NCBI GenBank assembly: GCA_016182875.1
Contig: JACPFQ010000004.1
Location: 28,637 to 92,636 of the forward strand
From: Candidatus Doudnabacteria bacterium
Lineage (GTDB): Bacteria; Patescibacteriota; Doudnabacteria; UBA920; O2-02-FULL-48-8
Direction: 5' to 3'
Length of the DNA: 64,000 nt
Below, in pieces: positions 21,778-64,000 of the stretch (its first letter is position 1; each line of letters starts with the position of its first letter). The position numbers were made by a program, and so were the translations under genes. A model generated the notes under the pieces. That model was not told where the DNA came from. It worked only from the letters and a program-made list of their open reading frames with translations, and did not search any database.

Positions 21778-22515
21778 ATGGCAAAAACGCCACCAGGAAA
21801 AGGGCCTAGAAAGGGTCCCGGCGGAAAAACCGGGGGTGGCCCCAGGAAAGCGGTTTACAAGCGAATATACGAAGTCGGCGGCACACCCGACGCCACCGAG
21901 CTCACTGTCACCATCTACAGGGACGGCCTGCTCGCGGACAAGGAAGCCGTGTGGTTCTACCTCGGGGTCGAAGGCAATCTGCACCAGAAGCCGGCCGAAG
22001 AACTCGACCCGGCAGCCCCCGGCGGCAAGAAAATTTGGAAGCTCGAGACCAAGGGCGGAGTCGCCCACGGCAGGCTCGACTTCACGAGCGCCGAGCTCTC
22101 CAAATTCACACACGTCACGGCTAAGCACGGCTCGTTCGACTGGGAGGAGACGAAGACACGGCCGCCAGCAGAGCCCACTGGGGTGAAGCCGAAAACCAAG
22201 TGGTTCAAGCTCACCCCCGACGACGAGAAGATCGAAACCTGGGATGAGCGCGCGGCGTTCACCTTGGTCACCTTCGACGCCACGGGCAAAACCCCGTCGG
22301 CCGAGACGATGCGCATCAGCGCAGGCAAGGTCATTCGCCTGTTCAACCGCGAAACCGGAGCGCTCATCGGCGAGGGCAAGGTCATCACGTTCGCAACGCC
22401 GGGCACCGGCATCCTCGACATCGAAGTCGAGGTCGTCGGCGACTTCCTGGCGAAGCTGACGTTCATGCACATCGCCAGCGCCGAGACGCTCACCAAGGAA
22501 ATCCGACTCAAATAG
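21778..22515 (+). CDS. Island hypothetical protein with Lys/Gly/Pro-rich N-terminus
   Basis: 245 aa. RBS GGAGG. High-GC codon usage. Overlapping minus-strand ORFs are treated as spurious. Confidence 0.45.
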   Translation: MAKTPPGKGPRKGPGGKTGGGPRKAVYKRIYEVGGTPDATELTVTIYRDGLLADKEAVWFYLGVEGNLHQKPAEELDPAAPGGKKIWKLETKGGVAHGRLDFTSAELSKFTHVTAKHGSFDWEETKTRPPAEPTGVKPKTKWFKLTPDDEKIETWDERAAFTLVTFDATGKTPSAETMRISAGKVIRLFNRETGALIGEGKVITFATPGTGILDIEVEVVGDFLAKLTFMHIASAETLTKEIRLK

Positions 22516-22526
22516 GAGAGACTGAC

Positions 22527-23141
22527 ATGGCAGAGATTGGCGGTATCAAGTTTGACTTCCCGGCCATCAAGGAAGTCCTCGCGTCGGCGGCTGGCCATCA
22601 GGTCTCCAACCTGTTGAGCTTCATCCTCGAACGCGGAACCGAGGCCGAGAAGCAGATCGTCGTCCAGGCCGGCAGGTTGATGGCCGAGGGCAAGTTCAAG
22701 GAAGCCGAGGAAGCATTGAAAGCGCTCCCCGGCGGAATCGGCCGGGCTGACGAAGCCATCTGGTGGTCGGATCTGGCATTCCTGCGGCGGCGCAACCTGC
22801 TCACTCCCGCGCAGGCGACGGCGCTCGAAGCCTTCCTCCGCAACCTCACGGAAGCGGAGAAGGACAAAATCCGCCTGACGCACGTGGTCAAGAATGAAGA
22901 CCAGCGCCGCCACGACCTGGTGACGCTGGGACGCATCGACAGGGACGACGCCAAGCGCCAGCACCTGGACATGGTGTTTCACAAAACGCTGGCCGACACG
23001 CTCAACGCAATCGGCGCGCAGGTCAGCACCTGGGTTCGTCCCAAGATTGAGGAAGCCCAGTGGCGAAACAAGCGGTTCGACGGACCGATCTGGCGGCTCT
23101 TCCGCCCGATCACCTGCATCTGGGAAGGCCTCGGCTTCTAA
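22527..23141 (+). CDS. Island hypothetical protein
   Basis: 204 aa. RBS AGGAGAG 7 nt upstream. Tightly packed with flanking plus-strand genes. Confidence 0.45.
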   Translation: MAEIGGIKFDFPAIKEVLASAAGHQVSNLLSFILERGTEAEKQIVVQAGRLMAEGKFKEAEEALKALPGGIGRADEAIWWSDLAFLRRRNLLTPAQATALEAFLRNLTEAEKDKIRLTHVVKNEDQRRHDLVTLGRIDRDDAKRQHLDMVFHKTLADTLNAIGAQVSTWVRPKIEEAQWRNKRFDGPIWRLFRPITCIWEGLGF

Positions 23142-23153
23142 GGAGAAGAGACA

Positions 23154-24107
23154 ATGAATCAGTTCGAACAAGCGTTGCTCCATGTCCTCGAACTGGCCTT
23201 CACCGATGGCAAGGGTAAAGTCCAGAGGACGATTCGTCCCATCACCGCCGGCTGCACGTTCTTCTGGGCGCTCGGCATGTTCCTGGCGTGGCTGCTCCAG
23301 AGCGGGACCCCGGCGTTCGTGTGTGCGGCCATCTGCGGCGCCATCTGGTTCATCCCCATCGGCCGGGTTGCTCTGGCCGCATGGATTGCCCAGATGATTC
23401 CCGAAGAGTGGCTGAAGAAACTGGGCTTGAGCGTCGAAAACTTCACGCCCAGCAAGACCACCTACACCCTCGGCACCGTCGGCATGTGGCAGATCGCGTC
23501 GCTCATCCTGCTCGGAGTCTTCCCGTTCTGGAAGAGCGGCATGTACTACTCGCTGTATGCCGCGTTCTGGGCCGTGATGGTGGCCACGTGGCTTATTGTC
23601 GCTACGTCCGAAGGCGACATCCGCTTCTGGCGCAAGATCTACGGCTGGTCCATCGCCGGGATTTTCGCCGGGATTCTGCTGTTGCTGCTAATGCCGGAAG
23701 AAGTCAACGGACTGCGGTCGTGGTTGGATCGGCGTGCGACGTACACCGTGGCCGAGACCGCGTTCCACAACGGCGTCGCGTCAGATACGCAAGCCATGCT
23801 CCAGCAGACTGACCAGAACCTCCGCGTCCTCGTCAACCAGCGCCGGTACTACAACCTTCAAGGTTGGGACTATCCGGCGGACAAGGAAGCGGAGATCGTG
23901 CGGCTGACTGCGCTGCACGAAGACCTCGTGCGGGAGCGCGACGTTCCGATTGCCAAGGCGCCGGGCCGGTTCTCGGCCGAAGCCGCCAACGCATTCGGAA
24001 GTTCACTCGACTTCGTCAGCGCGACAGCCAGCAACCCCTGGCTCGCGGGGTTTGCCTGCTTCGCACTGCTGATGTTCGGCTGGGTGGTCATGAAGGGAAG
24101 GAGCTAG
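23154..24107 (+). CDS. Island polytopic membrane protein
   Basis: 317 aa. RBS AGGAGAAG. Several hydrophobic helices. Confidence 0.45.
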   Translation: MNQFEQALLHVLELAFTDGKGKVQRTIRPITAGCTFFWALGMFLAWLLQSGTPAFVCAAICGAIWFIPIGRVALAAWIAQMIPEEWLKKLGLSVENFTPSKTTYTLGTVGMWQIASLILLGVFPFWKSGMYYSLYAAFWAVMVATWLIVATSEGDIRFWRKIYGWSIAGIFAGILLLLLMPEEVNGLRSWLDRRATYTVAETAFHNGVASDTQAMLQQTDQNLRVLVNQRRYYNLQGWDYPADKEAEIVRLTALHEDLVRERDVPIAKAPGRFSAEAANAFGSSLDFVSATASNPWLAGFACFALLMFGWVVMKGRS

Positions 24108-24109
24108 CC

Positions 24110-24919
24110 ATGAGCACACCATCTTCGTCGTCAGGAAACGGCCGACTCCGGCGCTTCGTGATCTTCGTCGGGTTCATGGGCGTGATCTGGTTCGCCTTGC
24201 TTCAGCCATGGATGCAGAGCGCCATCGGGTTCAACGGCTGGCACATCATGGCCTACCAGAACGGCATCCGCTCGGCGGACTGGCGCTGTGCCAACAAGCA
24301 GCCCGAGGACATCGGTCCGGACTGCGACATCGACGCAGTTTATGAGAGGTACGTCCCCACCGCACAGCGCGCCGGCAACCTGACAGCGTCGGTCCACCAG
24401 CTCAACGCAATCGCGGCGAACCTCGCCACGGTCAAATCGCCGCTGGTGGTCGATTCTGGGTCCGCGCTCTGGCAGCTCGACAATATCCACGACACAGAAT
24501 ACCGGCAAACCTTCAAAGGTATCCCTGTGTTCAAGGGTCGGGTGCAGATCCGCGTCCGCGAGCGCGTCACCAGCAAGGACTGCGGCTACAATACAACGGA
24601 CGCCAACGGGGTGCCCAAGCCCGGCGGGCCGTTCTGCAAGCTGGAGCTTGTGGACGACAACCTGCCGTACCTGGCCGCGATCGGGCGGCGGTGTCCGGCA
24701 GAGGGCTGCAGCAATCCCTCGTCCTTCACCAGTCCGGAGGCCAAGTTCCTGGTCGGGACGTGTCTCGACCTGGACGCGGCTGCGGTCAACGGTGTCGTCA
24801 ACCTCGTCGTCAATGAGGGTCGGCATGCCGACTACTTCGGCGACAATACCGGGGACTACGTCGTCGAGTATGAACACAATCCCGCGACTGGCTGCCGTGG
24901 GGAGCAGTTCACGTACTAG
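24110..24919 (+). CDS. Island secreted/membrane-anchored Cys-containing protein
   Basis: Start taken at MSTPSSSS after RBS GGAAGGAG. Signal/TM segment FVIFVGFMGVIWFALL. Confidence 0.4.
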   Translation: MSTPSSSSGNGRLRRFVIFVGFMGVIWFALLQPWMQSAIGFNGWHIMAYQNGIRSADWRCANKQPEDIGPDCDIDAVYERYVPTAQRAGNLTASVHQLNAIAANLATVKSPLVVDSGSALWQLDNIHDTEYRQTFKGIPVFKGRVQIRVRERVTSKDCGYNTTDANGVPKPGGPFCKLELVDDNLPYLAAIGRRCPAEGCSNPSSFTSPEAKFLVGTCLDLDAAAVNGVVNLVVNEGRHADYFGDNTGDYVVEYEHNPATGCRGEQFTY

Positions 24920-25053
24920 CAGCCAACCCAAGGAGGAAGCGTCTCCGGTCAGATGACTGGAGGCATGACAATAACCACGGCCCTGAAGGAGCAGGGCTGG
25001 AGAGCGGCGTCGCACAATCGGCACCGCTTTTTTTTATTTTGCAAAACAAAATA

Positions 25054-25078
25054 CTCCGACCCGCCCGCGGCGTCGGAG
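25054..25078. repeat. CTCCGAC...GTCGGAG hairpin (member of TCCGAC hairpin family)
   Basis: 7-bp inverted repeat with 11-nt loop. Same arm sequences as the hairpins at 39332, 39921 and 60646. Confidence 0.5.
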
Positions 25079-25315
25079 TTAAACTGGCTTTAATATTGCC
25101 TCTATGGGCAGGGATATTGGCGAATCTGTTTTTAGCCGCTTGCTGAAATTGAGAATAGTGAATCCTTTGATGGCTTTGGTTTTAGGATCAAGCCGAATCA
25201 CGACATCATCCGCAGTTTCTACAGAGAGGGAGCTTTTGGATGGCTTGCCTTGGGAAAAATACATTACGTCTGCTTGTTTGTCGTAGTAGTAATAAAGTTT
25301 CATGATTGAATCCAA
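25079..25315 (-). CDS. DUF2283-family small protein (second copy)
   Basis: 78 aa. YYYYDKQADVMYF...KAIKGFTILNF. Low GC, embedded in the high-GC island. Confidence 0.5.
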   Translation of the reverse strand: MDSIMKLYYYYDKQADVMYFSQGKPSKSSLSVETADDVVIRLDPKTKAIKGFTILNFSKRLKTDSPISLPIEAILKPV

Positions 25316-25608
25316 TAAGTTAAATACGCTGTGAGGATAAAATTTCGCCTGTTAATTTTGACGACTGCTGCCAGATGCTTGTTATGAGAAATTTCGCGGT
25401 AAAGAATAAATGCCTTGGGATCTGTTTTGGATGGACGAATAAGCTCTGGATTTTCCAAAACAAGCTTTATGCTTGGCTTGAGAGTTCTCAGCTCGGGGTG
25501 AAAATTGACTATGTGGCTCCACCGTTCGCTGGTCAATTCCACCGGCCCGAATGGTGAGTCAAATAGCTCCATGTAAAAATTATAAACCCATTGCGTCAGT
25601 CTTGACAA
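25300..25608 (-). CDS. DUF4258-like small protein (putative toxin partner)
   Basis: 102 aa. Overlaps the downstream DUF2283 gene by 16 nt. Same gene order as the pair at 2506-2953. Confidence 0.4.
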   Translation of the reverse strand: MSRLTQWVYNFYMELFDSPFGPVELTSERWSHIVNFHPELRTLKPSIKLVLENPELIRPSKTDPKAFILYREISHNKHLAAVVKINRRNFILTAYLTYWIQS

Positions 25609-25630
25609 GTGGACGGTTTTCTGCTATACT
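25602..25630 (+). promoter_or_regulatory. Sigma70-type promoter TTGACA-17-TATACT upstream of island secreted protein gene
   Basis: Shares the core TTGACAA.GTGG.CG with the promoter at 21561. Confidence 0.45.
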
Positions 25631-25745
25631 TGTACGTTAAAATCCCGAATTTGTTTCAGGGCCCAAAATTGAGGGCTCTACAACAAGTTCAGAATTTACG
25701 GAAACCGCAAGAATTGTAAAAAGGTCTAGGAGGACCAATACTACC

Positions 25746-26738
25746 ATGAGAACGAAACTCTTTTTCGTCGTCGCGTTCGTCGCACTCGCGTCTACCGCGT
25801 TCGCACAGGAGACGCTCGACTTCAGTACCCAGCCGCGCTCAGTGCGCGCCATCGCTAAGGTCGTCATCGAGACGGCGGGGTACCTCGTCAGCGAGGAGTC
25901 GCTGAGCACCATCGACCCCTCCTGCACGTGGAACCGCACGCTCGACGTGAGCGACCTCGAGCAGGCGCTCAACACCATCCTGCCGAGTTGCGGCAACGAG
26001 GCGCAGTTCGACGACTACCGGGTGACCATCCGGAAGCGCGGCAGCCCGGCACCAGCCACACGCAGTATGTCCGCTCCCGCTCGCCGCGCCGCAACGCCGA
26101 CCATCGCGGAACCCGAACCGCCTGCCGCTCAGCCTGCCGCACCCGCGGCGCCGGCGTCCACTGACCCGAACGTGTGGTCAGCCGCCGACGTCAGCCGCTA
26201 CGGCCCCTTGCCGCTGAATGCCAGGCCGGAGTTCTATCGCATCAGCCAGCAGGTCAGGCGGCAGGCGTTCGGCGACGCGTTCGTCAACTTCCGCAACGCG
26301 GAAGAGGACTTCGCACGCCGCACCGGCGTTTACCCCGATCAGGTTGGTCCGTTCGTCGGCGCTACCTACGGCGCATATTCCCCCTACGGTTTGTACGGCT
26401 ACGGCCTCTCGAGGGGTTGTTCCACTGGACAGCCGTCCGGCAGGGTCAAGTTCAAGTACTACGGTGAGGGAAAGGAACGTGGCCTCTGGAAGGTCTGGTT
26501 CAACGGACGTCGTATCGGGTCCGTGGACCAGGGAGACAGTGCGTGGAACGAGATGTGGGAGTGCGTCGGCGACTATGTCGTCGAAATCGAAAAACGCCGC
26601 TGTCAACCCAGGGGTCTCTGCCGGTATCGAGACGTGTACAGCGTCAGAGCCGGCGAACTGACCGAGGTTGAGATCGGCGACGTGCTGTTCGAAGACAGCC
26701 ACGAACGGCGGCGGCCTCAGATTCTCACCGAGCGTTAA
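25746..26738 (+). CDS. Secreted protein with signal peptide and Pro/Ala-rich linker (high GC)
   Basis: 330 aa. MRTKLFFVVAFVALASTAFAQE signal peptide. RBS AGGAGGA. Confidence 0.5.
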   Translation: MRTKLFFVVAFVALASTAFAQETLDFSTQPRSVRAIAKVVIETAGYLVSEESLSTIDPSCTWNRTLDVSDLEQALNTILPSCGNEAQFDDYRVTIRKRGSPAPATRSMSAPARRAATPTIAEPEPPAAQPAAPAAPASTDPNVWSAADVSRYGPLPLNARPEFYRISQQVRRQAFGDAFVNFRNAEEDFARRTGVYPDQVGPFVGATYGAYSPYGLYGYGLSRGCSTGQPSGRVKFKYYGEGKERGLWKVWFNGRRIGSVDQGDSAWNEMWECVGDYVVEIEKRRCQPRGLCRYRDVYSVRAGELTEVEIGDVLFEDSHERRRPQILTER

Positions 26739-27724: not shown

Positions 27725-27753
27725 AGGTTTCTTGAGTTTTTTATCTTTAGGTT

Positions 27754-27796
27754 CGCCCGGTCATCCGACCGGGCGTCCAGTCGAATGACTGGACGA
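27754..27796. repeat. GC-rich double-hairpin repeat (REP-like), copy 1
   Basis: CGCCCGGTCATCCGACCGGGCG + TCCAGTCGAATGACTGGACGA. Roughly 85% identical to 50950-50993. Confidence 0.5.
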
Positions 27797-27824
27797 CCGA
27801 CCTTTCTACCTAAAGCTATTAATG

Positions 27825-32247: not shown

Positions 32248-32862
32248 ATGAATGAGCTAACTCCCAAACAAAAAAAATTACTAGACTTGCTTTCTGAGCA
32301 GATTAGAACCAAGGGGCTGCCTCCCTCTATTTCAGAGATTGCTCACAGCCTCAAATTGAAATCCAAAAATGCCGTAGTGAAGCTTCTAAACAGCCTGGAA
32401 GCAAAAGGTTTTATCAGACGGTCAAGCAAGGCCCGCGATATTGAAGTCTTAAACCCGGATGGGGAGCCGTTGGGGCGAGGACTTTTGAGCGTGCCGCTGC
32501 TCGGGCGAATCACGGCGGGAATACCCATGCTGGCCGAAGAACAGGTTGAGGATTGGTTAAATTTACCTATGAGCCTGGTCCGGGGGCGCAAAGACGTGTT
32601 TTTGCTCAAAGTTGCCGGCATGAGCATGAAGGATGCAGGCATTCTGGATAGCGACTTGGTTTTGGTCAAACAGCAAAAAATTGCCGAACCCGGAGACATC
32701 GTCGTGGCTTTGCTGGAAGATGAAGCCACGGTCAAGCGCTTGGTGAAAAAAGAGGGCAGGTTCTTCCTAAAAGCGGAAAATAAAGAATACCCAAATATTT
32801 ACCCTGAGCATGAATGGTCGATTCAGGGAAAAGTAATCGGAGTTATCCGGAGGATGGAGTGA
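32248..32862 (+). CDS. lexA: LexA repressor
   Basis: 204 aa. N-terminal wHTH. Ala-Gly cleavage site (VAGMSM). Ser/Lys dyad of an S24 peptidase. Confidence 0.9.
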   Translation: MNELTPKQKKLLDLLSEQIRTKGLPPSISEIAHSLKLKSKNAVVKLLNSLEAKGFIRRSSKARDIEVLNPDGEPLGRGLLSVPLLGRITAGIPMLAEEQVEDWLNLPMSLVRGRKDVFLLKVAGMSMKDAGILDSDLVLVKQQKIAEPGDIVVALLEDEATVKRLVKKEGRFFLKAENKEYPNIYPEHEWSIQGKVIGVIRRME

Positions 32863-32863
32863 T

Positions 32864-33046
32864 ATGTCAGAATTCGAGAAACAAAAATACACTGTGATCA
32901 GTCAGTTGAAGAGTCTCTGCGCCCACTGTATCAATAATGTAGAGCACAACTGCAAGCTTCACAAGATTGTTTCAGAAGTATCGGGTTTGAACGGAGTCCC
33001 GCTTATAGTCAACGACAGATTCAATGGAATATTCTTTAATAATTAA
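32864..33046 (+). CDS. Small Cys-containing protein coupled to lexA
   Basis: 60 aa. CAHC...HNC motif. Start lies 1 nt after the lexA stop. Confidence 0.3.
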   Translation: MSEFEKQKYTVISQLKSLCAHCINNVEHNCKLHKIVSEVSGLNGVPLIVNDRFNGIFFNN

Positions 33047-33062
33047 TTGCAAGGACTAAGAC

Positions 33063-33299
33063 ATGCAGCAGACATTTGCTCCCACGCTTTTCTCCACCAA
33101 GGCCACTGTTGGCCGAAGGACGTATTTCTTCGACGTGAAAACTGCGAAAAATTCCAAACCCTTTCTCAAAATCACGCAGTCTGAAATAAATGGTGAAGAA
33201 AAGAAAAAGAGTTATCTGAACGTCTTTGATTCAGAAGTCCCAAACTTTCATTCGGCGCTGACTGAAGCCGTGGACTACATCAATCAAAGCGCCAAATAA
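33063..33299 (+). CDS. PUR-alpha-like nucleic-acid-binding protein (DUF3276-like)
   Basis: 78 aa. RRTYFFDVKTAKNSKPFLKITQ resembles a PUR repeat. Confidence 0.5.
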   Translation: MQQTFAPTLFSTKATVGRRTYFFDVKTAKNSKPFLKITQSEINGEEKKKSYLNVFDSEVPNFHSALTEAVDYINQSAK

Positions 33300-33343
33300 A
33301 ATCAAGCCCTGACTTCAAGCCGGGGCTTTTGTAAATTTAAACA

Positions 33344-34870
33344 ATGCAAAATTTTCCAACTAAAGTATACTCGGCAGCTCTCCTGGGCCTTGATGCGGCC
33401 TGCGTAGAGGTGGAAGTTGATATCTCAGGCGGCTTGCCGAAGACAATTATCGTCGGACTTCCGGACACGGCCGTCCAAGAGGCTAAGGAGCGCGTCAAAT
33501 CCGCGATCAAAAACTCCAACGCCATATTCCCACCCACGCGCATAGCAGTTAACTTGGCTCCGGCCGACATCCCCAAAAACGGCACTCACTACGATTTGCC
33601 CATAGCACTTGCCGTGCTTCTTAACTCCGGACAAATATTTTTTGAGCCCAAGGGCAAGCTCTTTTTGGGCGAACTGGCCTTAGACGGCTCGGTCCGCGCA
33701 GTAGCCGGCGTGCTTCCGATTTTGCTTATGGCCAAAAAGCAAGGATTCAAAACAGTGTTTATACCGCATGCCAACAGCAAGGAAGCTAGCCTGGTTTCCG
33801 GAATCCGTATCATAGCCATCAAAAATTTGTCCCAACTGATTGGATATCTGCAAAATCTTATCAAAATTGCCCCAGTTAAAGAAATCGATTGGTCCGGCGT
33901 TTTAAAAACTTTGGAAAACGGTTTCGACATGAAACTAGTTAAAGGACAAGAAGCTGCCAAACGCGCCTTGGAAATCGCGGCAGCGGGCGGCCACAATATA
34001 CTGCTCTCAGGTCCCCCCGGTACGGGCAAAACCTTGCTTGCCAAGTCCTTGCCTTCCATCCTTCCCCAGCCCACTGTGGACGAGGTCTTGGAGATTACGA
34101 AAATCTACAGCGTCGCCGGGCTCCTTAGCTTAAACAAAACCTTGGTTACCAACCGGCCCTTCCGCCATCCCCACCACACTTCTTCAGCCGTAGCTTTGGT
34201 CGGCGGGGGGTCCAGCCCCAAGCCGGGAGAAATCTCACTGGCTCATCGCGGAGTACTATTCCTTGATGAATTCCCGGAATTTGCCCGGTCGGTATTGGAA
34301 AATCTAAGGCAGCCGCTGGAAGACGGCGTGGTCACTGTTGCGCGGGCTCAAGCGACCATTACCTTTCCCGCGACTTTTACCTTGGTCGCAGCGCAAAATC
34401 CCTGTCCCTGCGGTTATTTTGCCGACCCAGCTCATTCCTGCTCCTGCTCGCCCTCTCAAATTATGAAGTATCAGAAAAAAATCTCCGGACCCTTGTTGGA
34501 CCGAATCGATCTTTGCATTGAAGTTGGCAGGGTCGAGTACGAAAAACTTACAGGCGAAGCAGAAACCGAAAATTCGGAAGATATCCAAAAAAGAGTCCAG
34601 AAAACTCGGGATATCCAAACTCAAAGATTTGAAGGAAGCGGTATTAAAACCAATTCCGAAATGAGCATTGGGGAAATTAGAAAATTCTGCGAACTCGGCC
34701 CAGAAGAACGGGAGTTCATGAAAACAGTGGTCATAAAAATGTATCTGTCGGCCCGTTCGTATCATCGAATCCTAAAAATCGGAAGAACCATAGCTGACCT
34801 TGCCCAATCACCGGACATTAAAGTTGCGCATCTGGCCGAGGCCATCCAATACCGGCCAAAAGTTGAATAA
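33344..34870 (+). CDS. comM: Mg-chelatase-like AAA+ ATPase ComM/YifB
   Basis: 508 aa. N-terminal VEVDISGGLPKTIIVGLPDTAVQE. Walker A GPPGTGKT. C-terminal ChlI domain. Confidence 0.9.
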   Translation: MQNFPTKVYSAALLGLDAACVEVEVDISGGLPKTIIVGLPDTAVQEAKERVKSAIKNSNAIFPPTRIAVNLAPADIPKNGTHYDLPIALAVLLNSGQIFFEPKGKLFLGELALDGSVRAVAGVLPILLMAKKQGFKTVFIPHANSKEASLVSGIRIIAIKNLSQLIGYLQNLIKIAPVKEIDWSGVLKTLENGFDMKLVKGQEAAKRALEIAAAGGHNILLSGPPGTGKTLLAKSLPSILPQPTVDEVLEITKIYSVAGLLSLNKTLVTNRPFRHPHHTSSAVALVGGGSSPKPGEISLAHRGVLFLDEFPEFARSVLENLRQPLEDGVVTVARAQATITFPATFTLVAAQNPCPCGYFADPAHSCSCSPSQIMKYQKKISGPLLDRIDLCIEVGRVEYEKLTGEAETENSEDIQKRVQKTRDIQTQRFEGSGIKTNSEMSIGEIRKFCELGPEEREFMKTVVIKMYLSARSYHRILKIGRTIADLAQSPDIKVAHLAEAIQYRPKVE

Positions 34871-34959
34871 CAAAAACTATTCGCTAGTAGTCTATGCTGT
34901 GGATAACGTTTTGCAAATCCAAACTTGTGGAGAAAAACCCAAAATGTTAGAATTCTAGT

Positions 34960-37254
34960 ATGGCTATCAGCAGTGAATTTCACGCATATACCTACATAAA
35001 AAACGAGCTAAAAGCTCTGGGTTGGAATGTTTACAACCCAAGCAGACGCGCGGATGGAGAAGTTTATACTCAAAACGAGTGCTTACAGAATGCGCTAATA
35101 AAAAAACATTTAATCGGCGAAAAGCCGGAGAATGTTATTGTCGTAAGGAATAATAAATTTTGGGTTATAGAAGCCAAATCAACACACAAGGAACTTCAAA
35201 AAGCAATAGAAGAAGCGCAAGGATATGCTGACAAATTAAATGAAGACGGAATTCATGCGCCTATTGCCACGGGAATAGCTGGTAATGATGAAGATACTTA
35301 CTTAATAAAGAGTTTTTATTTTTACAAAGGGAAGTGGGTTCCAATTGAGGCCAACGGGAAAGTTTTAACCGGATTGTTGCCTCGCGAAACAGCGCGTTAT
35401 TTGGTTGACAATGATATATACAAAACAGAGGACTTTAATCTTCCTGACGAGCTTTATTACGCAAAGGCCAATGCCATCAACGAAATACTACATATTGGCT
35501 CTATTAATAAAAACAATAGAGCGAAAGTAATGGCTGCATTATTGTTAGCACTTCTTGAGGAAACTCCGATCAACCTAGATAATTCTGCTTCCTTGTTAAT
35601 CCAAGAAATAAACGCGCGGGTTGACAAGATTTTGTTTGAACATGGCAGGAGAGATTTTGCTAGGTTTGTTCAAATAACAACCCCACCCACTCCTGACAAT
35701 CATGTAAAGTTTAGGAAAGCGATTATTGACACCATACAAGAGTTGAAGGGATTAAATATTCGGTCTGCGATGAACTCCGGAACTGACATTCTCGGCAGAT
35801 TTTATGAAGTTTTCTTAAAATACGGCAATGGTGCAAAAGAAATTGGTATCGTTTTAACGCCAAGACACATTACCAGATTAGGTGTTGAGATTTTAAATGT
35901 AAGCAGAACCGATGTTGTTTTTGATCCGGCTTGCGGAACCGGAGGATTTTTGGTGGCCGCTTTTGACTATGTGCGAAAACACGCAAATAAAACACAGTTA
36001 GACGAGTTCAAGGAAAATAGGATTTTTGGCATAGAACAAGAACCTGAAGTGGTTGCTCTTGCTCTAGTAAATATGATCTTCAGGGGCGATGGGAAAAACA
36101 ACATTATTGAAGGCAATACTTTCGCAAAAATAATTCCTACAAAGGCAACGAAAGTTTTAATGAATCCCCCATTTGCACTCAAAAAAGATGATGAGAAAGA
36201 GTATAAGTTTATTGATAGGGCAATTGAGCAAATGGAAGATGGTGGGCAGATGTTTGTTATTATTCCTAGCACCATAATGTTTAAGGGAAAACAATATAAA
36301 ACATGGAGAGAAAAATTACTCCAAAATAATACTATTCAAGGAGTAATTAAACTACCCGAGGATCTATTTTATCCAATAGGAGTACATACATCCGCTTTAA
36401 TTCTTAAAAAAGGCATTCAACACGACAAAGGAGAACAGATTTTTTGGGGTTACCTAGTTGATGGGTATATGAAAAAGAAGGGTGTAATGAAAAAAGTAAA
36501 GGATGGGAATATAGAAATGATGAAATCAGCCGTTATTGATTTTTTGAACCATTCAAAAAATCTGCCGAAATCAAAACCGAAAGAATATACCATTGCGCCA
36601 GCATTATTCGATTCCGATTTAGAACTTGCTCCAGAATATTACCTTGAAGAGGGCGAGCACAGCGACAATGAAATTGAAAAGCAAATGCAAATCGTATTGG
36701 ATAGGTTGTTTAGTTATCTTATGAATAGCTCTCAAACAAATGTTAATGGTAGTGTTCTACAATCTTCAAAAATAGACATCGATCATTTTGAAGACATAGA
36801 AGGCGTTTTCAACATCGCAAACGCGAAATCTAGCAATATCGAGGATTACGCCAAAGGCGACGTACCTTTTGTTACGAGTACGGAGTTAAATAACGGTGTT
36901 GAAATGTTTATTGAGCCAGATGATGATAGTTTAATTTTCGATACGCCCGGTATAGCTATTTCTTCTTTTGGATTTGCCACTATACAATTACCGCCATTTG
37001 TAGCGAGAAGCCATGGGGCAGTAATAGTGCTAAAACCAAAAAAGAAAATGGGGATTTTAGAACTTGCGTACTTTGCCGCACAACTTAATTTACAAACGTG
37101 GCGGTTCTCTTACGGAAGATGGGTAACAAAGAAAAGATTGAAAAAGCTCGAAATAAAAACTCTCAAAAATGGAGACATTCCATCGTTCAAGAAATTCGTA
37201 GATAGATTTGAAGATAACTATAAAAAAGCAAGGAAAATAGTTACTGGAGAATAG
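34960..37254 (+). CDS. Single-chain Type IIG-like restriction-modification enzyme (nuclease + gamma-class N6A MTase + TRD)
   Basis: 764 aa. N-terminal PD-(D/E)xK-like VIEAKS. MTase motif I FDPACGTGGFL. Motif IV NPPF. C-terminal TRD-like region. Confidence 0.65.
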   Translation: MAISSEFHAYTYIKNELKALGWNVYNPSRRADGEVYTQNECLQNALIKKHLIGEKPENVIVVRNNKFWVIEAKSTHKELQKAIEEAQGYADKLNEDGIHAPIATGIAGNDEDTYLIKSFYFYKGKWVPIEANGKVLTGLLPRETARYLVDNDIYKTEDFNLPDELYYAKANAINEILHIGSINKNNRAKVMAALLLALLEETPINLDNSASLLIQEINARVDKILFEHGRRDFARFVQITTPPTPDNHVKFRKAIIDTIQELKGLNIRSAMNSGTDILGRFYEVFLKYGNGAKEIGIVLTPRHITRLGVEILNVSRTDVVFDPACGTGGFLVAAFDYVRKHANKTQLDEFKENRIFGIEQEPEVVALALVNMIFRGDGKNNIIEGNTFAKIIPTKATKVLMNPPFALKKDDEKEYKFIDRAIEQMEDGGQMFVIIPSTIMFKGKQYKTWREKLLQNNTIQGVIKLPEDLFYPIGVHTSALILKKGIQHDKGEQIFWGYLVDGYMKKKGVMKKVKDGNIEMMKSAVIDFLNHSKNLPKSKPKEYTIAPALFDSDLELAPEYYLEEGEHSDNEIEKQMQIVLDRLFSYLMNSSQTNVNGSVLQSSKIDIDHFEDIEGVFNIANAKSSNIEDYAKGDVPFVTSTELNNGVEMFIEPDDDSLIFDTPGIAISSFGFATIQLPPFVARSHGAVIVLKPKKKMGILELAYFAAQLNLQTWRFSYGRWVTKKRLKKLEIKTLKNGDIPSFKKFVDRFEDNYKKARKIVTGE

Positions 37255-37347
37255 CACCATTTGCCGCTGAAAAAGCGATCTTTTGCTAAAATAAGTTCAA
37301 AGTGCCGCCCATCAATTGGCTTCAAAAAAGCTTTCTGATTTTATTGT

Positions 37348-37460
37348 GGTGGGCTTGACCTGGGTGACTTCGAGGCCAAGCTGATTATTGTCCTGCTTCG
37401 CCAAAGGCTTCGCAGGACACTGCTTCGTGCTTGCACTGCGTAGTTCGAAGAACGAAGCAG
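37348..37460. repeat. 113-bp repeat fused to tRNA-Ile 3' end (copy 1)
   Basis: 100% identical to 63871-63983. Contains two strong hairpins. Distal end resembles a tRNA 3' end (CCCAGGTCAAGCCCACCA). Confidence 0.7.
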
Positions 37461-37537
37461 TGGTGGGCATGCCTGGACTCGAACCAGGAACCGTTCGGAT
37501 ATAAGCCGAATGCTCTAACCAGTTGAGCTACATGCCC
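37461..37537 (-). tRNA. tRNA-Ile (anticodon TAT, reads AUA)
   Basis: Acceptor GGGCATG/CATGCCC. Anticodon stem TTCGG/CCGAA. Loop CTTATAT. CCA encoded. Confidence 0.65.
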
Positions 37538-50922: not shown

Positions 50923-50949
50923 AAATTTCTCTGGCGGAGAGGGTGGGAG

Positions 50950-50993
50950 TCGCCCAGTCATCCGACTGGGCGTCCGGTCGTATGACCGGACGA
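50950..50993. repeat. GC-rich double-hairpin repeat (REP-like), copy 2
   Basis: CGCCCAGTCATCCGACTGGGCG + TCCGGTCGTATGACCGGACGA. Lies between tRNA-Ser and the csaA-like gene. Confidence 0.5.
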
Positions 50994-51009
50994 ACAGCTA
51001 AATTTCAAC

Positions 51010-51128: not shown

Positions 51129-51845
51129 CTATACCGAGATCAGATCCTTCGCTTCACTCAGGATGACACCATAATTCTTTTCAAAATTCCTAAATGAGCA
51201 AAAACTTCTAATCACTTGTTGCACGAACGTGAAACTGGTGCGATGCACGGGTGTTACACCGAATCTTTTCAAAGCCGCTCGATGCTCCTTAGTGCCATAA
51301 CCTTTATGTTTCACGAATCCATAATTCGGATACTGCTCATGCAACTCAGCCAGTATTTTATCCCGTGAAACTTTGGCGATAATCGAAGCCGCTGAGATAG
51401 AAAGAATTTTTACATCGCCATCAACTACCGGTTCCTGCGCAAAATCAAACCGTTTTATTCTGTGCAAGCCGTCCAGAAACAAATAATCCGGCAATACCTT
51501 CAACTGCTCAGCTGATTTCTGCATCGCCAGCATTGCCGCTTGATGAATATTTATTTCGTCAATCGTTTCGTGTGACACGACTCCGATTCCAAAGTCAACG
51601 CAATTATCTTTTATAAATTCTATGAGTTCGGTTCTTTCCTTCTCATTCGTCGTCTTTGAATCGCGCACGCGGTACCACCATTTGTTCTTGCTGCGCTGTC
51701 TGCCGATTGACTGCGAATCAAGAATGACCGTGGCGGCCACCACCGGGCCGGCCAGCGGCGCGATTCCCACTTCATCACAACCAGCAACCACTTTAAACCC
51801 TTCGAGATATTTTTGTGTTTCGTGCTTATATGTCGGAAATTTCAT
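51129..51845 (-). CDS. rnhB: Ribonuclease HII
   Basis: 238 aa. N-terminal GCDEVGIAPLAGPVVAA motif. Confidence 0.85.
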   Translation of the reverse strand: MKFPTYKHETQKYLEGFKVVAGCDEVGIAPLAGPVVAATVILDSQSIGRQRSKNKWWYRVRDSKTTNEKERTELIEFIKDNCVDFGIGVVSHETIDEINIHQAAMLAMQKSAEQLKVLPDYLFLDGLHRIKRFDFAQEPVVDGDVKILSISAASIIAKVSRDKILAELHEQYPNYGFVKHKGYGTKEHRAALKRFGVTPVHRTSFTFVQQVIRSFCSFRNFEKNYGVILSEAKDLISV

Positions 51846-52157: not shown

Positions 52158-52233
52158 TTGGTGGACCTGGCGGGACTCGAACCCGCGATCTTTAGTATGC
52201 CATACTAACGCTTTTCCTCTAAGCTACAGGCCC
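52158..52233 (-). tRNA. tRNA-Ala (anticodon GGC)
   Basis: G3:U70 wobble pair in the acceptor (Ala identity). Anticodon loop ATGGCAT. CCA encoded. Confidence 0.8.
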
Positions 52234-52904
52234 GCTAAAATTAACTTTGGGATTGCTTCAAGCTCAAGTTGTATATGACTGCCAACTCCCATGATGACAC
52301 AAACGCCTTTATATTCTTTATTCTTTGTTGGTTTGCCAATAGTTCTCGGGTCAAATTTTGTCTTATAAAAATTTCTCAAAGGTATACCAGTTAGGACTGA
52401 CCAATATTTCTCCAAACTTTTAATGTTCTGATCTGCTCGATAACTAACCCTACACTTAAGGTTCCTGTGATCAACTCCATAGCATAACTCTAGTAATTTA
52501 ATATATAAAAGAATTATATTCGGATCAGAACTACCGAGTACCATGCCGCTATGACCTTTCCACTTAGTTCCTTCACCTAAATAAAGAGTGGCTAAAATCA
52601 TTTTTAAAACATCTAAATCTTTGGTTTTTTGCTGAAGTGGTTTTATGTTATTCAACAATTCTTGGATAAACCTCTCGCGCTTGATTTTATTTGCTGCCCA
52701 TGCTAATTCTCTGGCTTTTTTATAATTCTCTTGGTTCAGTTTGTAAATCTTTTGCCTGTACCACTTTGGCAAAACAACATCCTTACACCAGCCAGATAGC
52801 GTCGCCTTAGGTAATGATAACTTCAAAGCCTGCTCAATTTCGGAATAAGTCTTGCCTTTGGCCCGAAGTTTGATTACTTGCTGTTTTATTTCCACTCGAT
52901 TCAT
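52224..52904 (-). CDS. HTH + LAGLIDADG-like (single-motif) putative homing-endonuclease-like protein
   Basis: 226 aa. N-terminal HTH. ILATLYLGEGTKW resembles a degenerate LAGLIDADG motif. Sits between two tRNAs. Tentative. Confidence 0.35.
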   Translation of the reverse strand: MNRVEIKQQVIKLRAKGKTYSEIEQALKLSLPKATLSGWCKDVVLPKWYRQKIYKLNQENYKKARELAWAANKIKRERFIQELLNNIKPLQQKTKDLDVLKMILATLYLGEGTKWKGHSGMVLGSSDPNIILLYIKLLELCYGVDHRNLKCRVSYRADQNIKSLEKYWSVLTGIPLRNFYKTKFDPRTIGKPTKNKEYKGVCVIMGVGSHIQLELEAIPKLILAGL

Positions 52905-63870: not shown

Positions 63871-63983
63871 TGGCGGGCTTGACCTGGGTGACTTCGAGGC
63901 CAAGCTGATTATTGTCCTGCTTCGCCAAAGGCTTCGCAGGACACTGCTTCGTGCTTGCACTGCGTAGTTCGAAGAACGAAGCA
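63871..63983. repeat. 113-bp repeat (copy 2) abutting a truncated tRNA 3' end at the window edge
   Basis: 100% identical to 37348-37460. Followed by TGGTGGACCTAGGGAG, the reverse complement of a tRNA ...CCTAGGTCCACCA 3' end. Confidence 0.7.
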
Positions 63984-64000
63984 GTGGTGGACCTAGGGAG

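What the first reader, a model, noticed from the sequence alone, without database searches (positions are those of the whole stretch)
37348..37537. 113-bp perfectly conserved structured element fused directly to the 3' ends of two different tRNAs (tRNA-Ile here; a second copy at the window edge)
Positions 37348-37460 and 63871-63983 are 100% identical over ~113 bp. Each copy runs without spacer into the CCA end of a minus-strand tRNA: tRNA-Ile at 37461, and an unidentified tRNA whose 3' end starts at 63984. The element has two long hairpins (CTGCTTCG...CGAAGCAG and GTCCTGC...GCAGGAC) and no T-run. Its distal end resembles a tRNA 3' end (CCCAGGTCAAGCCC[A/G]CCA). Perfect identity across 26 kb argues for recent transposition or conversion, or for very strong selection, for example on a co-transcribed trailer, small RNA or att-like module.
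Basis: seen in the sequence. Interest (0 to 1): 0.55.

Follow-up and report, generated by a model that had tools for sequence, protein, structure and literature searches.

The report
Hairpin repeat cassette at tRNA ends
A 110-base non-coding cassette, made of REP-like hairpins plus a decayed copy of a tRNA tail, sits directly after the CCA end of two tRNA genes in a Candidatus Doudnabacteria genome. It looks like small mobile or recombining DNA that lands at tRNA ends, not a conserved RNA gene.

Summary
The repeat is real. The two copies share an identical 116-nt block (37351-37466 and 63875-63990), then one mismatch, then CCA. Each copy starts right after the CCA of a minus-strand tRNA. Independent Logan assemblies confirm both distal junctions.

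The source is a Candidatus Doudnabacteria (CPR) chromosome. The element is modular. It holds two inverted REP-like hairpins, and a third hairpin whose loop and 3' arm are a decayed copy of the tRNA-Ile T-loop-to-CCA end. The layout is therefore attL/attR-like.

The central hairpin (TG-TCCTGCGAAGCC-TTGG-CGAAGCAGGA) recurs almost unchanged in more than 100 genomes of many phyla. It is sometimes nested in other palindromes, and about 5% of matches lie just after tRNAs.

The cassette is absent from five orthologous tRNA-Ile loci. One is empty. One carries a Y1 (RAYT/IS200-like) transposase flanked by hairpins at the same spot. Three more tRNAs in the window carry other cassettes followed by copies of their own 3' ends.

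Best reading: a non-autonomous REP/REPIN-like cassette that inserts 3' of CCA, recently copied between tRNAs. The enzyme is not shown. Rfam has no match, and conservation does not support a functional trailer RNA. I rate it a new variant of a known kind, of moderate interest.

The parts
37461..37537 (-). tRNA-Ile(TAT) with encoded CCA. Its terminal CA (37461-37462) pairs with the TG at 37418-37419 and closes hairpin 1.
   Evidence: ARAGORN; Rfam tRNA 73 bits; fold. A sigma-70-like promoter (TTGAAA-17-TATAAT) lies at 37576-37548.
37351..37460 (-). Copy 1 of the cassette, 110 nt, 100% identical to 63875-63984. GC is 56% against 39% in the flanks.
37420..37460 (-). Hairpin 1. Outer stem CTGCTTCG/CGAAGCAG. 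It encloses an 'A-type' mini-hairpin (CTGC-TTCG-TTC..GAA-CTAC-GCAG, 37436-37460), which is the inverted counterpart of hairpin 2, and the block TGCAAGCA.
   Evidence: Fold. The same modules occur in L005, L006 and L095. The outer stem covaries across lineages.
37390..37418 (-). Hairpin 2 ('HP2', B-type): G-TCCTGC-GAA-GCC-TTT-GGC-GAA-GCAGGA-C with a 3x3 GAA/GAA internal loop. This is the cross-phylum module.
   Evidence: Fold. Pattern scans: more than 118 genome loci, 5 metagenome loci, 4 viral contigs.
37353..37381 (-). Hairpin 3: GCTTGGCCT / loop CGAAGTCACCC / AGGTCAAGC. The 5' arm is an inverted copy of the tRNA-Ile T-stem/acceptor region. The loop and 3' arm are the direct copy.
   Evidence: Fold. 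Inverted copy GCTTGGCCTCGAA scores 9, reached by 19 of 500 shuffles.
37347..37373 (-). tRNA-derived remnant TCGAAGTCACCCAGGTCAAGCCC-A-CCA. It corresponds to the tRNA-Ile T loop through CCA, with small indels, and is attR-like.
   Evidence: (0 of 1000 shuffles)
63875..63984 (-). Copy 2 of the cassette. It carries the same Ile-like remnant, followed by G (63874) and CCA (63871-63873).
   Evidence: Distal junction seen in Logan contigs L001 and L002.
63985..64000 (-). 3' end of a second tRNA (...CTCCCTAGGTCCACCA), cut by the window end. It is probably a tRNA-Ala. This is inferred from U70 in ...GGTCC-A-CCA, as in the window's tRNA-Ala(GGC).
   Evidence: sequence reading; isotype is an inference
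37300..37346 (-). Ancestral downstream flank: CAATAAAATCAGAAAGCTTTTTTG. It is a degenerate version of the terminator ATAAAGCCGAAAGGCTTTTTTG that follows tRNA-Ile in relatives.
   Evidence: Comparison with L128, L129 and L131. No terminator-like site is called here.

Best explanation
The repeat is a small, non-coding, non-autonomous DNA cassette of the REP/REPIN (palindromic repeat) kind, lodged at the 3' end of tRNA genes. It is not a conserved RNA gene.

Anatomy, which is shown:
- tRNA...CCA
- hairpin 1, which encloses an A-type REP-like unit
- TG
- hairpin 2, a B-type unit that is the inverted counterpart of A
- a short linker
- hairpin 3, whose loop and 3' arm are a decayed copy of the tRNA-Ile T-loop-to-CCA end
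- the ancestral downstream flank

History, which is inferred:
1. A site-specific event at the tRNA-Ile gene left a duplicate of the tRNA's 3' end. Events of this kind are frequent in this lineage.
2. An A-B hairpin doublet occupies the gap directly after CCA, as it does after tRNAs in several other phyla.
3. The whole inter-CCA segment, remnant included, was recently copied to a second tRNA, probably tRNA-Ala.

Mechanism I commit to, which is inferred:
- Single-strand, hairpin-dependent transposition by a Y1 (HUH) transposase of the RAYT/IS200-IS605 type, supplied in trans.
- The enzyme cuts after a CCA at each end, the tRNA's own CCA on the left and the remnant's CCA on the right.
- It re-inserts 3' of another CCA without making a target duplication.

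Rough likelihoods: 'mobile or recombining selfish cassette' about 0.75; the Y1-type chemistry specifically about 0.4.

The cassette lies downstream of the tRNA promoter, with no terminator-like site called after it. It may therefore be co-transcribed and act incidentally as a 3' structure. That was not tested.
For: (1) Two identical copies, each bounded by CCA: CCA|110 nt|N-CCA.

(2) There are no terminal inverted repeats, no ORF and no Rfam match. Stable hairpins sit at both ends.

(3) The A and B units share inverted outer arms (CTGCTTCG / CGAAGCAG), so the pair is a REPIN-like inverted doublet.

(4) HP2 recurs almost unchanged in more than 118 loci of many phyla.
- TG precedes it in 65 of 128 matches, and an A-type unit lies upstream in 26 of 128 against 3 downstream.
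- It is nested inside other palindromic repeats in several genomes.
- Six of 123 genome matches lie less than 200 nt 3' of a same-strand tRNA, in six different lineages.

(5) In the tRNA-linked cases the hairpin after the tRNA begins at the tRNA's terminal CA and closes on the TG before HP2.
- Its stem covaries: 95% of cells paired, 7 of 10 pairs changed on both sides, 0 of 500 shuffles.
- The arms were picked by eye, so this count is biased towards pairing.

(6) The cassette is not conserved. Five orthologous tRNA-Ile(TAT) loci in Doudnabacteria lack it.
- L145 is empty next to a 74/77-identical tRNA.
- L143 has a PF01797 Y1 transposase flanked by two copies of a hairpin in that very position.
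- L128 and L131 have other hairpin cassettes plus tRNA 3' remnants.
- L129 has a nested tRNA.

(7) Copy 2 carries the same remnant as copy 1, which does not match its own tRNA's 3' end beyond CCA. The remnant therefore travelled with the cassette. The junctions are those expected from cut-and-join at CCA.

(8) GC is 56% against 39% in the flanks.

(9) Published REP superfamilies have unpaired 3-nt tails that mostly read CCA. They form head-to-head dimers and can sit inside other palindromes (PMC3733652). REPINs are mobilised by RAYTs (PMC3116915).
Against: - No Y1 transposase is in the 64-kb window (tblastn; Pfam scans of about 50 ORFs).
- The Y1 gene in L143 is flanked by unrelated hairpins.
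- Copy number in the whole genome is unknown, and only two copies are seen here.
- IS200/IS605-type insertion makes no target duplication. It therefore does not by itself explain the 17-24-nt direct repeats of tRNA 3' ends at tRNA-Ile, -Leu, -Pro and -Ser. These look like integrase att duplications or long staggered-cut duplications.
- The canonical unpaired GTAG/CGTC tag of REPs is not evident.
- The identity of the two copies could come from gene conversion rather than transposition.
- The RNA level was not tested, and a G-T wobble in hairpin 3 on the tRNA-sense strand is compatible with RNA-level folding.
Confidence: 0.55

Rival explanations
1. It is a miniature integrative element or att scar, comparable to a CIME. 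A tyrosine (or other site-specific) recombinase encoded elsewhere recombines a cassette-borne tRNA-like site with the T-loop-to-CCA part of tRNA genes. This leaves attL (the intact tRNA) and attR (the tRNA 3' remnant) around a tiny insert. Copy 2 arose by recombination within the shared CCA.
For: - Direct repeats of the tRNA's own 3' end lie downstream of four of the seven complete tRNAs. All start in the T loop (..TTC|AANTCC..). Pro 20/20, Leu 19/20, Ile 15/17, Ser about 16/21. Shuffles reaching the score: 0, 0, 0 and 23 of 1000.
- The same layout occurs at L128 and L131.
- T-loop crossover is a classical integrase sublocation (e.g. phage Ms6, PMC1762012).
- tRNA fragments left by integrated elements are well documented (PMC9897764).
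Against: - No integrase is in the cassette or in the window.
- Inserts of 55-135 nt are far smaller than known integrative elements.
- The homologous Leu and Pro cassettes each carry repeats of their own tRNA. That would require a different attP for each, or a mechanism that copies the target.
- Copy 2's remnant does not match its own tRNA.
- The A-B doublets after tRNAs in other phyla have no such repeats.
Confidence: 0.2
2. It is a functional co-transcribed 3' trailer. The hairpins act at the RNA level, protecting the precursor from 3' exonucleases, guiding end processing, replacing the decayed terminator, or yielding a small RNA with a minihelix-like CCA end.
For: - A strong promoter lies upstream of tRNA-Ile, and there is no terminator between the tRNA and the cassette.
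- The ancestral terminator of relatives is degenerate here.
- The fold is very stable (z = -4.9).
- The hairpin that abuts the tRNA end covaries across phyla and keeps a fixed orientation relative to the tRNA.
- There is a G-U wobble on the sense strand of hairpin 3.
Against: - The cassette is absent from all five orthologous tRNA-Ile loci, including the closest one.
- Only 2 of 8 tRNAs in the window carry it.
- Rfam has no match.
- HP2 occurs in both orientations relative to neighbouring genes and inside other repeats (the orientation test is rough).
- Perfect identity with no variation is what recent copying gives. It is not evidence of selection.
- There is no U-tract.
Confidence: 0.12
3. 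The two cassettes were inserted independently and long ago. They were then made identical by gene conversion, and the element is no longer mobile.
For: - Identity ends exactly where homology would end: the tRNA body on one side and N-CCA on the other.
- The remnant resembles both tRNA-Ile (CCAGG-CATGCCC) and the second tRNA (CTCCCTAGGTC against CACCC-AGGTC), as a conversion mosaic might.
- RecA is encoded in the window.
Against: - Independent insertions are still required, so this changes only the last step.
- A 110-nt tract is short for efficient RecA-dependent conversion.
Confidence: 0.1
4. The repeat is an assembly artefact (repeat collapse or chimera).
For: Contigs of independent assemblies break at the element.
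Against: The breaks lie about 30 nt inside the element, and both distal junctions are reproduced in five other sequencing runs. The unique flanks differ, and the two copies differ at one base.
Confidence: 0.02

Closest known systems
REP / BIME / REPIN elements mobilised by RAYT (Y1, HUH) transposases (PMC3116915, PMC3337134)
   Same: - Short imperfect palindromes in extragenic DNA.
- Two units in inverted orientation that can form one long hairpin.
- No ORF, no terminal inverted repeats, no target duplication.
- A RAYT-like gene flanked by hairpins exists in the lineage at the same tRNA-Ile flank (L143).
   Different: - Only two copies are seen.
- No cognate RAYT was found.
- The position is exactly at tRNA CCA ends.
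- The element carries a tRNA-derived remnant.
- The B-type hairpin is almost invariant across phyla, whereas REPs are usually species-specific.
GTAG- and CGTC-tagged REP superfamilies (Di Nocera et al. 2013, PMC3733652)
   Same: - Found in many phyla.
- Head-to-head dimers.
- Unpaired 3-nt tails that mostly read CCA.
- Some are nested inside other palindromes.
- Their termini abut or supply stop codons, as HP2 does in Caulobacterales loci.
   Different: - No clear unpaired GTAG or CGTC tag. CTAC/GTAG occurs only inside the A-type unit.
- The stems carry a 3x3 GAA/GAA internal loop.
- That paper does not report an association with tRNA 3' ends (tRNA is mentioned 4 times, for other reasons).
IS200/IS605 family and its ORF-less derivatives (PATEs); from my own knowledge
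   Same: - Subterminal hairpins at both ends.
- Insertion 3' of a short specific sequence.
- The right end terminates in a short cleavage motif.
- No inverted repeats and no target duplication.
- The CCA|...|CCA junctions fit this chemistry.
   Different: - No tnpA or tnpB is nearby.
- The left and right hairpins are not similar to each other.
- The target would be only 3-4 nt, yet both insertions are at tRNA ends.
Integrative elements that use tRNA genes as att sites, and their integrase-less derivatives (CIMEs); T-loop sublocation (PMC1762012; Williams 2002 from my own knowledge)
   Same: An intact tRNA, then an insert, then a direct repeat of the tRNA 3' end starting in the T loop.
   Different: - The insert is about 100 nt instead of kilobases.
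- There is no integrase.
- The same cassette sits at two different tRNAs, and one of its repeats does not match the host tRNA.
Folded single-strand recombination sites (integron attC; CTX phage attP(+)); from my own knowledge. A resemblance only.
   Same: The Ile, Leu and Pro cassettes hold an inverted and a direct copy of the target's T-loop region. Together these can fold into a hairpin that imitates the duplex target.
   Different: No IntI or Xer link was tested, and there is no sequence similarity to attC or dif.

Membership tests
REP/REPIN (RAYT-mobilised) | Short imperfect palindromes (about 20-40 nt) outside genes | tested here: met
   Hairpins 1-3. Both copies are intergenic.
REP/REPIN (RAYT-mobilised) | Two REP units in inverted orientation forming the mobile doublet | tested here: met
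   The A-type unit CTGCTTCG...CTACGCAG is the inverse of the B-type arms CTGCGAAG...CGAAGCAG. An A-type unit lies upstream of HP2 in 26 of 128 matches elsewhere.
REP/REPIN (RAYT-mobilised) | Tens to hundreds of copies per genome | not testable with these tools
   Only 64 kb of the genome is available, with 2 copies and no diverged copy. The source MAG is not in the searchable genome collection.
REP/REPIN (RAYT-mobilised) | A cognate RAYT (PF01797) gene flanked by the same REPs | tested here: inconclusive
   None in the window. A PF01797 gene flanked by a different hairpin sits at the same tRNA-Ile flank in L143.
GTAG/CGTC-tagged REP superfamilies | Unpaired GTAG or CGTC tetranucleotide at one end | tested here: not met
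   No terminal tag. CTAC (the reverse complement of GTAG) lies inside the A-type unit. Some HP2 variants read GCGTAGC.
GTAG/CGTC-tagged REP superfamilies | Short unpaired tail, mostly CCA, at the other end | tested here: met
   CCA lies on both sides of both copies. The feature is described in PMC3733652.
IS200/IS605-derived ORF-less element (PATE) | Subterminal hairpins, no terminal inverted repeats, no target duplication, insertion 3' of a fixed short motif | tested here: met
   Hairpins at both ends. TIR test score is only 6. Both copies lie 3' of CCA and end in CCA.
IS200/IS605-derived ORF-less element (PATE) | Ends related to those of a full-length tnpA-carrying element in the same genome | not testable with these tools
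   The whole genome is not available, and no tnpA is in the window.
tRNA-targeting integrative element (tyrosine integrase) | Direct repeat of the tRNA 3' part flanking the insert | tested here: met
   Copy 1: 15 of 17, reached by 0 of 1000 shuffles. Copy 2 shares only CCA with its own tRNA.
tRNA-targeting integrative element (tyrosine integrase) | Integrase gene inside the element | tested here: not met
   The insert is 110 nt with no ORF, and no integrase is in the window.
MITE (DDE-transposon derivative) | Terminal inverted repeats and a fixed-length target duplication | tested here: not met
   No TIR. Only CCA is shared at the ends of both copies.
Known structured RNA family (Rfam 15) | A covariance-model match | tested here: not met
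   No match at gathering scores or at E <= 10. The same holds for related loci.
Intrinsic terminator | GC-rich hairpin followed by a U-tract | tested here: not met
   No terminator-like site on the tRNA strand.

The most novel reading that the evidence does not exclude
The tRNA-linked cassettes of this lineage (the 110-nt element and the Leu/Pro and Ser cassettes) could be a new class of miniature, enzyme-less integrating elements. They would recognise tRNA genes through their own nucleic acid. Each carries an inverted copy of its host tRNA's T-loop region, and the copy is target-specific: GGGAATTGAAC for Pro, GGAGTTGAAC for Leu. That copy, paired with the direct copy, would act as a guide or as a folded mimic of the target. 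A trans-acting recombinase would then insert the cassette at the T-loop/CCA end of any tRNA, duplicating about 20 nt.
Probability: 0.12. Interest if true: 0.8.

Novelty: new variant of a known kind. Interest (0 to 1): 0.5.

Why it matters
If the reading is right, tRNA 3' ends in a streamlined CPR genome are landing pads for several families of tiny hairpin cassettes. Six of the eight tRNAs in the window carry repeat-derived DNA in their trailers.

This affects how tRNA precursors must be processed, because a stable helix starts at the CCA itself. It also affects how tRNA genes and tRNA fragments are annotated in metagenome-assembled genomes.

It links a cross-phylum, nearly invariant 26-nt hairpin to tRNA ends. 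It also gives a concrete test system for asking which enzyme moves REP-like DNA in bacteria where no dedicated transposase is known: CCA-bounded ends, circle junctions and empty sites.

Tried and rejected
- Rfam at gathering and permissive thresholds on the window, the element, the Leu/Pro trailers and related loci found nothing but tRNAs.
- The exact 24-mer of hairpin 3 has no match in 185,579 species genomes. The junction 22-mer has none in viral contigs.
- BLAST of the element against plasmids and phages found nothing. So there is no sign of a plasmid or phage vector.
- I read the distal end as a complete tRNA T arm plus acceptor and rejected that. It is a fragment with indels.
- I tried to identify copy 2's tRNA and its ancestral site through orthologues of the downstream trehalose-6-phosphate synthase. 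Relatives have no tRNA there, so synteny is not conserved.
- Logan contigs could not extend past the repeat.
- I tested whether ORFs upstream of tRNAs are a shared mobile gene. Only window 52224-52904 and L131 10824-11492 are homologous (27%). The others are RNase HII, DUF218 and PaaX-like.
- I suspected that ORF to be a LAGLIDADG homing endonuclease. This is not supported:
  - There is no Pfam, NCBIfam or PDB sequence match.
  - The AlphaFold model is confident (pLDDT 87.8) but has no significant Foldseek match in PDB (best E = 0.01, TM 0.25).
  - The gene is a conserved syntenic neighbour of tRNA-Ala(GGC) in other CPR.
- The gene-orientation census of HP2 with naive ORF calls was too noisy in GC-rich genomes to be more than a hint.
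- A search of paper full text for the HP2 sequence found nothing relevant.
Full report
**The observation**

On the minus strand, tRNA-Ile(TAT) at 37537-37461 ends ...GCATGCCCACCA. It runs straight into CTGCTTCG...GGTCAAGCCC (110 nt, 37460-37351), then A, then CCA. A second copy lies at 63984-63875. It is preceded by a tRNA 3' end (...CTCCCTAGGTCCACCA) cut by the window edge, and followed by G, then CCA.

The uninterrupted identical block is 116 nt: CCACCA of both tRNAs plus 110 nt. A 41-mer of the element occurs twice against 0.00 expected. A sensitive in-window BLAST finds no further or diverged copy.

The RNA or single-strand fold has three hairpins: -48.5 kcal/mol, z = -4.9, 0 of 200 shuffles as stable. 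There is no T-run and no terminator-like site. Rfam 15 has no match at gathering scores or at E <= 10.

Independent Logan assemblies of five other runs reproduce the junctions between each unique flank and the distal 30 nt of the element, and break there. A true repeat would give exactly this, so an assembly artefact is very unlikely.

**Source and surroundings**

The window is a bacterial chromosome encoding RecA, FtsK, IF-2, RNase Y, RNase III, FtsH and SMC. Its ROK kinase and trehalose-6-phosphate synthase are 100% identical to proteins of a Candidatus Doudnabacteria (CPR/Patescibacteria) MAG with a 327-kb contig. About 50 ORFs were scanned. None is an integrase, transposase or reverse transcriptase.

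**Anatomy**

The element is modular.

- *Hairpin 1* (37460-37420) has a perfect outer stem, CTGCTTCG/CGAAGCAG. The stem extends to 10 bp by using the tRNA's terminal CA and the TG at 37419-37418. It encloses a mini-hairpin, CTGC-TTCG-TTC..GAA-CTAC-GCAG ('A-type'), and the block TGCAAGCA.
- *Hairpin 2* ('HP2', 37418-37390) is G-TCCTGC-GAA-GCC-TTT-GGC-GAA-GCAGGA-C, with a symmetric GAA/GAA internal loop. Its arms are the inverse of the A-type arms, so A and B form an inverted, REPIN-like doublet.
- *Hairpin 3* (37381-37353) pairs GCTTGGCCT with AGGTCAAGC.

The last 27 nt, TCGAAGTCACCCAGGTCAAGCCC-A-CCA, are a decayed copy of the tRNA-Ile T loop, T stem, acceptor strand and CCA. The best local alignment is CCAGGTCAAGCCCACCA against CCAGG-CATGCCCACCA, score 12, reached by 0 of 1000 dinucleotide shuffles. 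The 5' arm of hairpin 3 is an inverted copy of the same tRNA region (19 of 500 shuffles).

The downstream flank, CAATAAAATCAGAAAGCTTTTTTG, is a degenerate form of the terminator ATAAAGCCGAAAGGCTTTTTTG that follows tRNA-Ile in relatives.

The layout is therefore: tRNA, then cassette, then tRNA-3'-end copy, then ancestral flank. The element is 56% GC in a 39% GC neighbourhood and has no terminal inverted repeats.

**Related sequences elsewhere**

The exact hairpin-3 24-mer is absent from 185,579 species genomes. The hairpin 1/hairpin 2 junction 22-mer hits five metagenome contigs.

- In L005, L007, L008 and L009 a tRNA-Ala(GGC) without encoded CCA ends ...GGGTCCA. It runs directly into CTGCTTCG..., an A-type hairpin, TG and HP2. 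The block CTACGCAGTGCAAGCAC lies downstream of HP2 instead of inside hairpin 1.
- In L006 the same start follows ...TGTCCACCA of something that is no longer a recognisable tRNA.

They come from Caulobacterales, Planctomycetota, Verrucomicrobiota, Omnitrophota, Armatimonadota, Bacteroidota, several CPR classes and others, including cultured isolates. Against that background:

- The commonest form is TG-TCCTGCGAAGCC-TTGG-CGAAGCAGGA. TG precedes the core in 65 of 128 matches.
- An A-type unit lies within 100 nt upstream in 26 of 128 matches, against 3 downstream.
- Many copies are nested in the apex of another widespread palindromic repeat (gtcatcctgagcgcagcga[cctg-HP2]aggatcc...). Others fill intercistronic gaps in Caulobacterales from stop codon to start codon.
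- A few are chance matches inside rsmI coding sequence.
- Six of 123 genome matches lie less than 200 nt 3' of a same-strand tRNA, in six lineages and at six isotypes (Gly, Arg, Ser, Pro, Thr, Ala). My rough expectation is about 0.3%, so this is enriched but far from exclusive.

In these tRNA-linked cases the hairpin after the tRNA starts at the tRNA's terminal CA and closes on the TG before HP2. Its stem differs between lineages but stays paired: 95% of cells paired, 7 of 10 pairs changed on both sides, 0 of 500 shuffles. I extracted the arms by eye, so this count is biased towards pairing. Only four viral contigs carry HP2, and plasmid and phage BLAST found nothing.

**The same locus in relatives**

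The order IF2-RbfA-DHH-FtsK-...-RecA-x-LspA-ROK-tRNA-Ile(TAT) is conserved in Doudnabacteria. None of five distinct relatives has the 110-nt cassette.

- *L145-L147.* The tRNA is 74/77 identical to the window's. CCA is followed by AAAATTATTC and the end of a convergent gene. This is an empty site.
- *L143/L144.* CCA, then 9 nt, then the hairpin TACGAGGGTGACCCTCGTA. A 203-aa PF01797 Y1 transposase (HUH motif PNHFHFL; YIHNNP) follows on the other strand, and then the same hairpin again.
- *L128.* tRNA, AATAA, two inverted hairpins, then GAGTCCAGGCAGGCGCACCA. That is a 3' fragment of a different tRNA-Ile allele, one that resembles the window's.
- *L131.* A window-like tRNA-Ile, an A-type hairpin (TCCGCC-TTCG-C..G-CTTC-GGCGGA), then CAAGCTAGTGCGCGCACCA, a 3' fragment of the L128-type allele.
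- *L129/L130.* A complete tRNA-Ile(TAT) with imperfect inverted flanks is inserted between A35 and T36 of another tRNA-Ile(TAT). The two halves rejoin into a perfect 75-nt tRNA.

The tRNA-Ile 3' flank is thus a hot spot with a different occupant in every genome. That contradicts a conserved trailer and supports insertion.

**Other tRNAs in the window**

Four of the seven complete tRNAs are followed by an insert and then a copy of their own 3' end. Every copy starts in the T loop.

| tRNA | Copy of its own 3' end | Position | Shuffles reaching the score |
|---|---|---|---|
| Pro | AATTCCCAGCACCCCGACCA, 20/20 | +137 | 0 of 1000 |
| Leu | 19/20 | +138 | 0 of 1000 |
| Ile | 15/17 | +98 | 0 of 1000 |
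| Ser | about 16/21 | +58 | 23 of 1000 |

Val, Ala(GGC) and Arg have none. Among 36 tRNAs in all fetched loci, such repeats occur only in Doudnabacteria, and another CPR locus has none.

The Leu and Pro inserts are homologous to each other (78% over 82 nt). Each also holds an inverted copy of its own tRNA's T-loop region: GGAGTTGAAC and GGGAATTGAAC (6 and 3 of 500 shuffles).

The Ser insert is a doublet of inverted hairpins. It recurs, with compensatory changes, after L128's tRNA-Ile and at a non-tRNA intergenic site in the window at 27746-27797. It is therefore an ordinary dispersed REP-like doublet.

**Interpretation**

The element is best read as non-autonomous REP/REPIN-like DNA at tRNA ends. 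The reasons are:

- its hairpin-doublet build and lack of ORF and inverted repeats;
- its absence from orthologous sites and its higher GC;
- the nesting of its modules in other palindromes and their cross-phylum spread;
- a RAYT/IS200-like gene with flanking hairpins at the same spot in a relative;
- the published observation that REP superfamilies end in unpaired CCA tails, form head-to-head dimers and sit inside other palindromes (PMC3733652; REPIN/RAYT: PMC3116915).

The CCA|...|N-CCA junctions fit IS200/IS605-type chemistry, which cuts after a short motif at both ends and re-inserts 3' of the same motif with no duplication. This description of the chemistry is from my own knowledge. So does the fact that copy 2 carries a remnant unrelated to its own tRNA's 3' end. 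In that scheme the remnant's CCA has been co-opted as the right-hand cleavage motif.

This step is inferred. No enzyme was identified for this cassette. The 17-24-nt repeats of tRNA 3' ends are not explained by that chemistry. They look like integrase att duplications at the T-loop sublocation (PMC1762012; PMC9897764), or like long staggered-cut duplications.

I therefore keep a trans-acting site-specific recombinase as the main rival (0.2). Gene conversion is an alternative for the last copying step (0.1). RNA function is a minority reading (0.12), because neither transcription nor processing could be tested.

**Novelty and score**

REP-like repeats and tRNA-linked att duplications are both known. 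Four things appear to be new:

- the combination of a REP-like inverted doublet that begins on the tRNA's own CA;
- the tRNA-tail remnant that travels with the cassette;
- the recurrence of this arrangement over several tRNAs in one CPR genome;
- the near-invariant HP2 hairpin across phyla.

I rate it a new variant of a known kind, interest 0.5. The most novel reading still open is nucleic-acid-guided or target-mimicking integration at tRNA T loops, suggested by the target-specific inverted copies. I give it about 0.12.

Noticed in passing
window 18562-18718 (after tRNA-Leu(TAG), minus strand) and 53979-54134 (after tRNA-Pro(CGG), plus strand): Two homologous cassettes of about 135 nt (78% identity over 82 nt). 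Each is followed by a 19/20 or 20/20 copy of its own tRNA's last 20 nt. Each also contains an inverted, target-specific copy of that tRNA's T-loop region (GGAGTTGAAC at 18687-18696; GGGAATTGAAC at 54000-54010). There is no Rfam match.
   Followed up: partly
window 50932-51009 (after tRNA-Ser(CGA)), window 27746-27797, and L128 10853-10921: A doublet of two inverted hairpins (GTTCGTCCGGTCATACGACCGGACG + CCCAGTCGGATGACTGGGCG) recurs with compensatory stem changes. After tRNA-Ser and after L128's tRNA-Ile it is followed by a diverged copy of a tRNA 3' end. At 27746 it is a plain intergenic repeat.
   Followed up: partly
L129 10818-11028 and L130 (Doudnabacteria GCA_001777705.1 and an independent ENA assembly): This is a tRNA inside a tRNA. 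A 136-nt insert with imperfect inverted flanks (CCCGCCTGCCACGCC...GGCATGGCGGGCAGG) carries a whole tRNA-Ile(TAT). It sits between A35 and T36 of another tRNA-Ile(TAT), and the two halves rejoin into a perfect 75-nt tRNA.
   Followed up: partly
L128 10778-10921; L131 11517-11652: Two tRNA-Ile(TAT) alleles replace each other at one locus. L128 has allele 1 intact plus a 3' fragment of an allele-2-like gene. L131 has allele 2 intact plus a 3' fragment of allele 1.
   Followed up: partly
L143/L144 4881-5560: A 203-aa PF01797 (Y1/HUH, RAYT- or IS200-like) transposase is flanked on both sides by the hairpin TACGAGGGTGACCCTCGT. It is lodged 9 nt after the CCA of tRNA-Ile(TAT).
   Followed up: partly
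L010-L127 (genome scan), e.g. L099, L110, L111, L124 (nested) and L028, L030, L049, L098 (Caulobacterales): The 26-nt hairpin TCCTGCGAAGCC-TTGG-CGAAGCAGGA is nearly identical in more than 100 species of many phyla. It is often nested in the apex of the widespread GTCATCCTGAGCG... palindromic repeat. In Caulobacterales it fills intercistronic gaps from stop codon to start codon, together with an inverted partner.
   Followed up: partly
window 52224-52904 (minus strand); L148 2501-3199; L131 10824-11492: A 226-aa protein found here only in CPR/Patescibacteria records (451 relatives, 55-80% identical among the 120 listed). It has an N-terminal HTH, and its 3' end overlaps the 5' end of tRNA-Ala(GGC). 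It lies between tRNA-Arg(CCT) and tRNA-Ala(GGC) in both the window and L148. There is no Pfam, NCBIfam or PDB match, and a confident AlphaFold model (pLDDT 87.8) has no significant fold match.
   Followed up: partly
window about 15500-15602 (after tRNA-Val(GAC)) and the 3' end of the RNase HII gene near 51129-51160: A copy of the widespread TGTCATGCTGAGCGGAGCGAAGCATC...GTTCAGAATGACA palindromic repeat follows tRNA-Val. The RNase HII ORF ends in ...VILSEAKDLISV, which looks like translation of the same kind of repeat.
   Followed up: no
window 32248-37254: The block LexA - 60 aa - DUF3276 - ChlI/ComM is inverted relative to L128-L131. The same inversion is seen in L143 and L145. In the window an N6-adenine methyltransferase/specificity fusion (34960-37254) is added next to the cassette.
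   Followed up: partly
window 19900-26700: A GC-rich stretch (55-62% against about 45%) has long overlapping ORFs on both strands, and none of the eight tested has a Pfam match.
   Followed up: no
window, all tRNAs; L005 and L148: All tRNA genes of this genome encode CCA. tRNA genes in other metagenome/CPR loci that were fetched (L005-L009, L148, L103) do not. Isoleucine AUA is read by a tRNA-Ile with a UAU anticodon throughout Doudnabacteria.
   Followed up: no
L007 about 1277-1291, L008 about 2696-2710, L009 about 296-310: A T-arm-like hairpin, CAAGTTCGATTCTTG, lies 48 nt downstream of tRNA-Arg(CCT).
   Followed up: no
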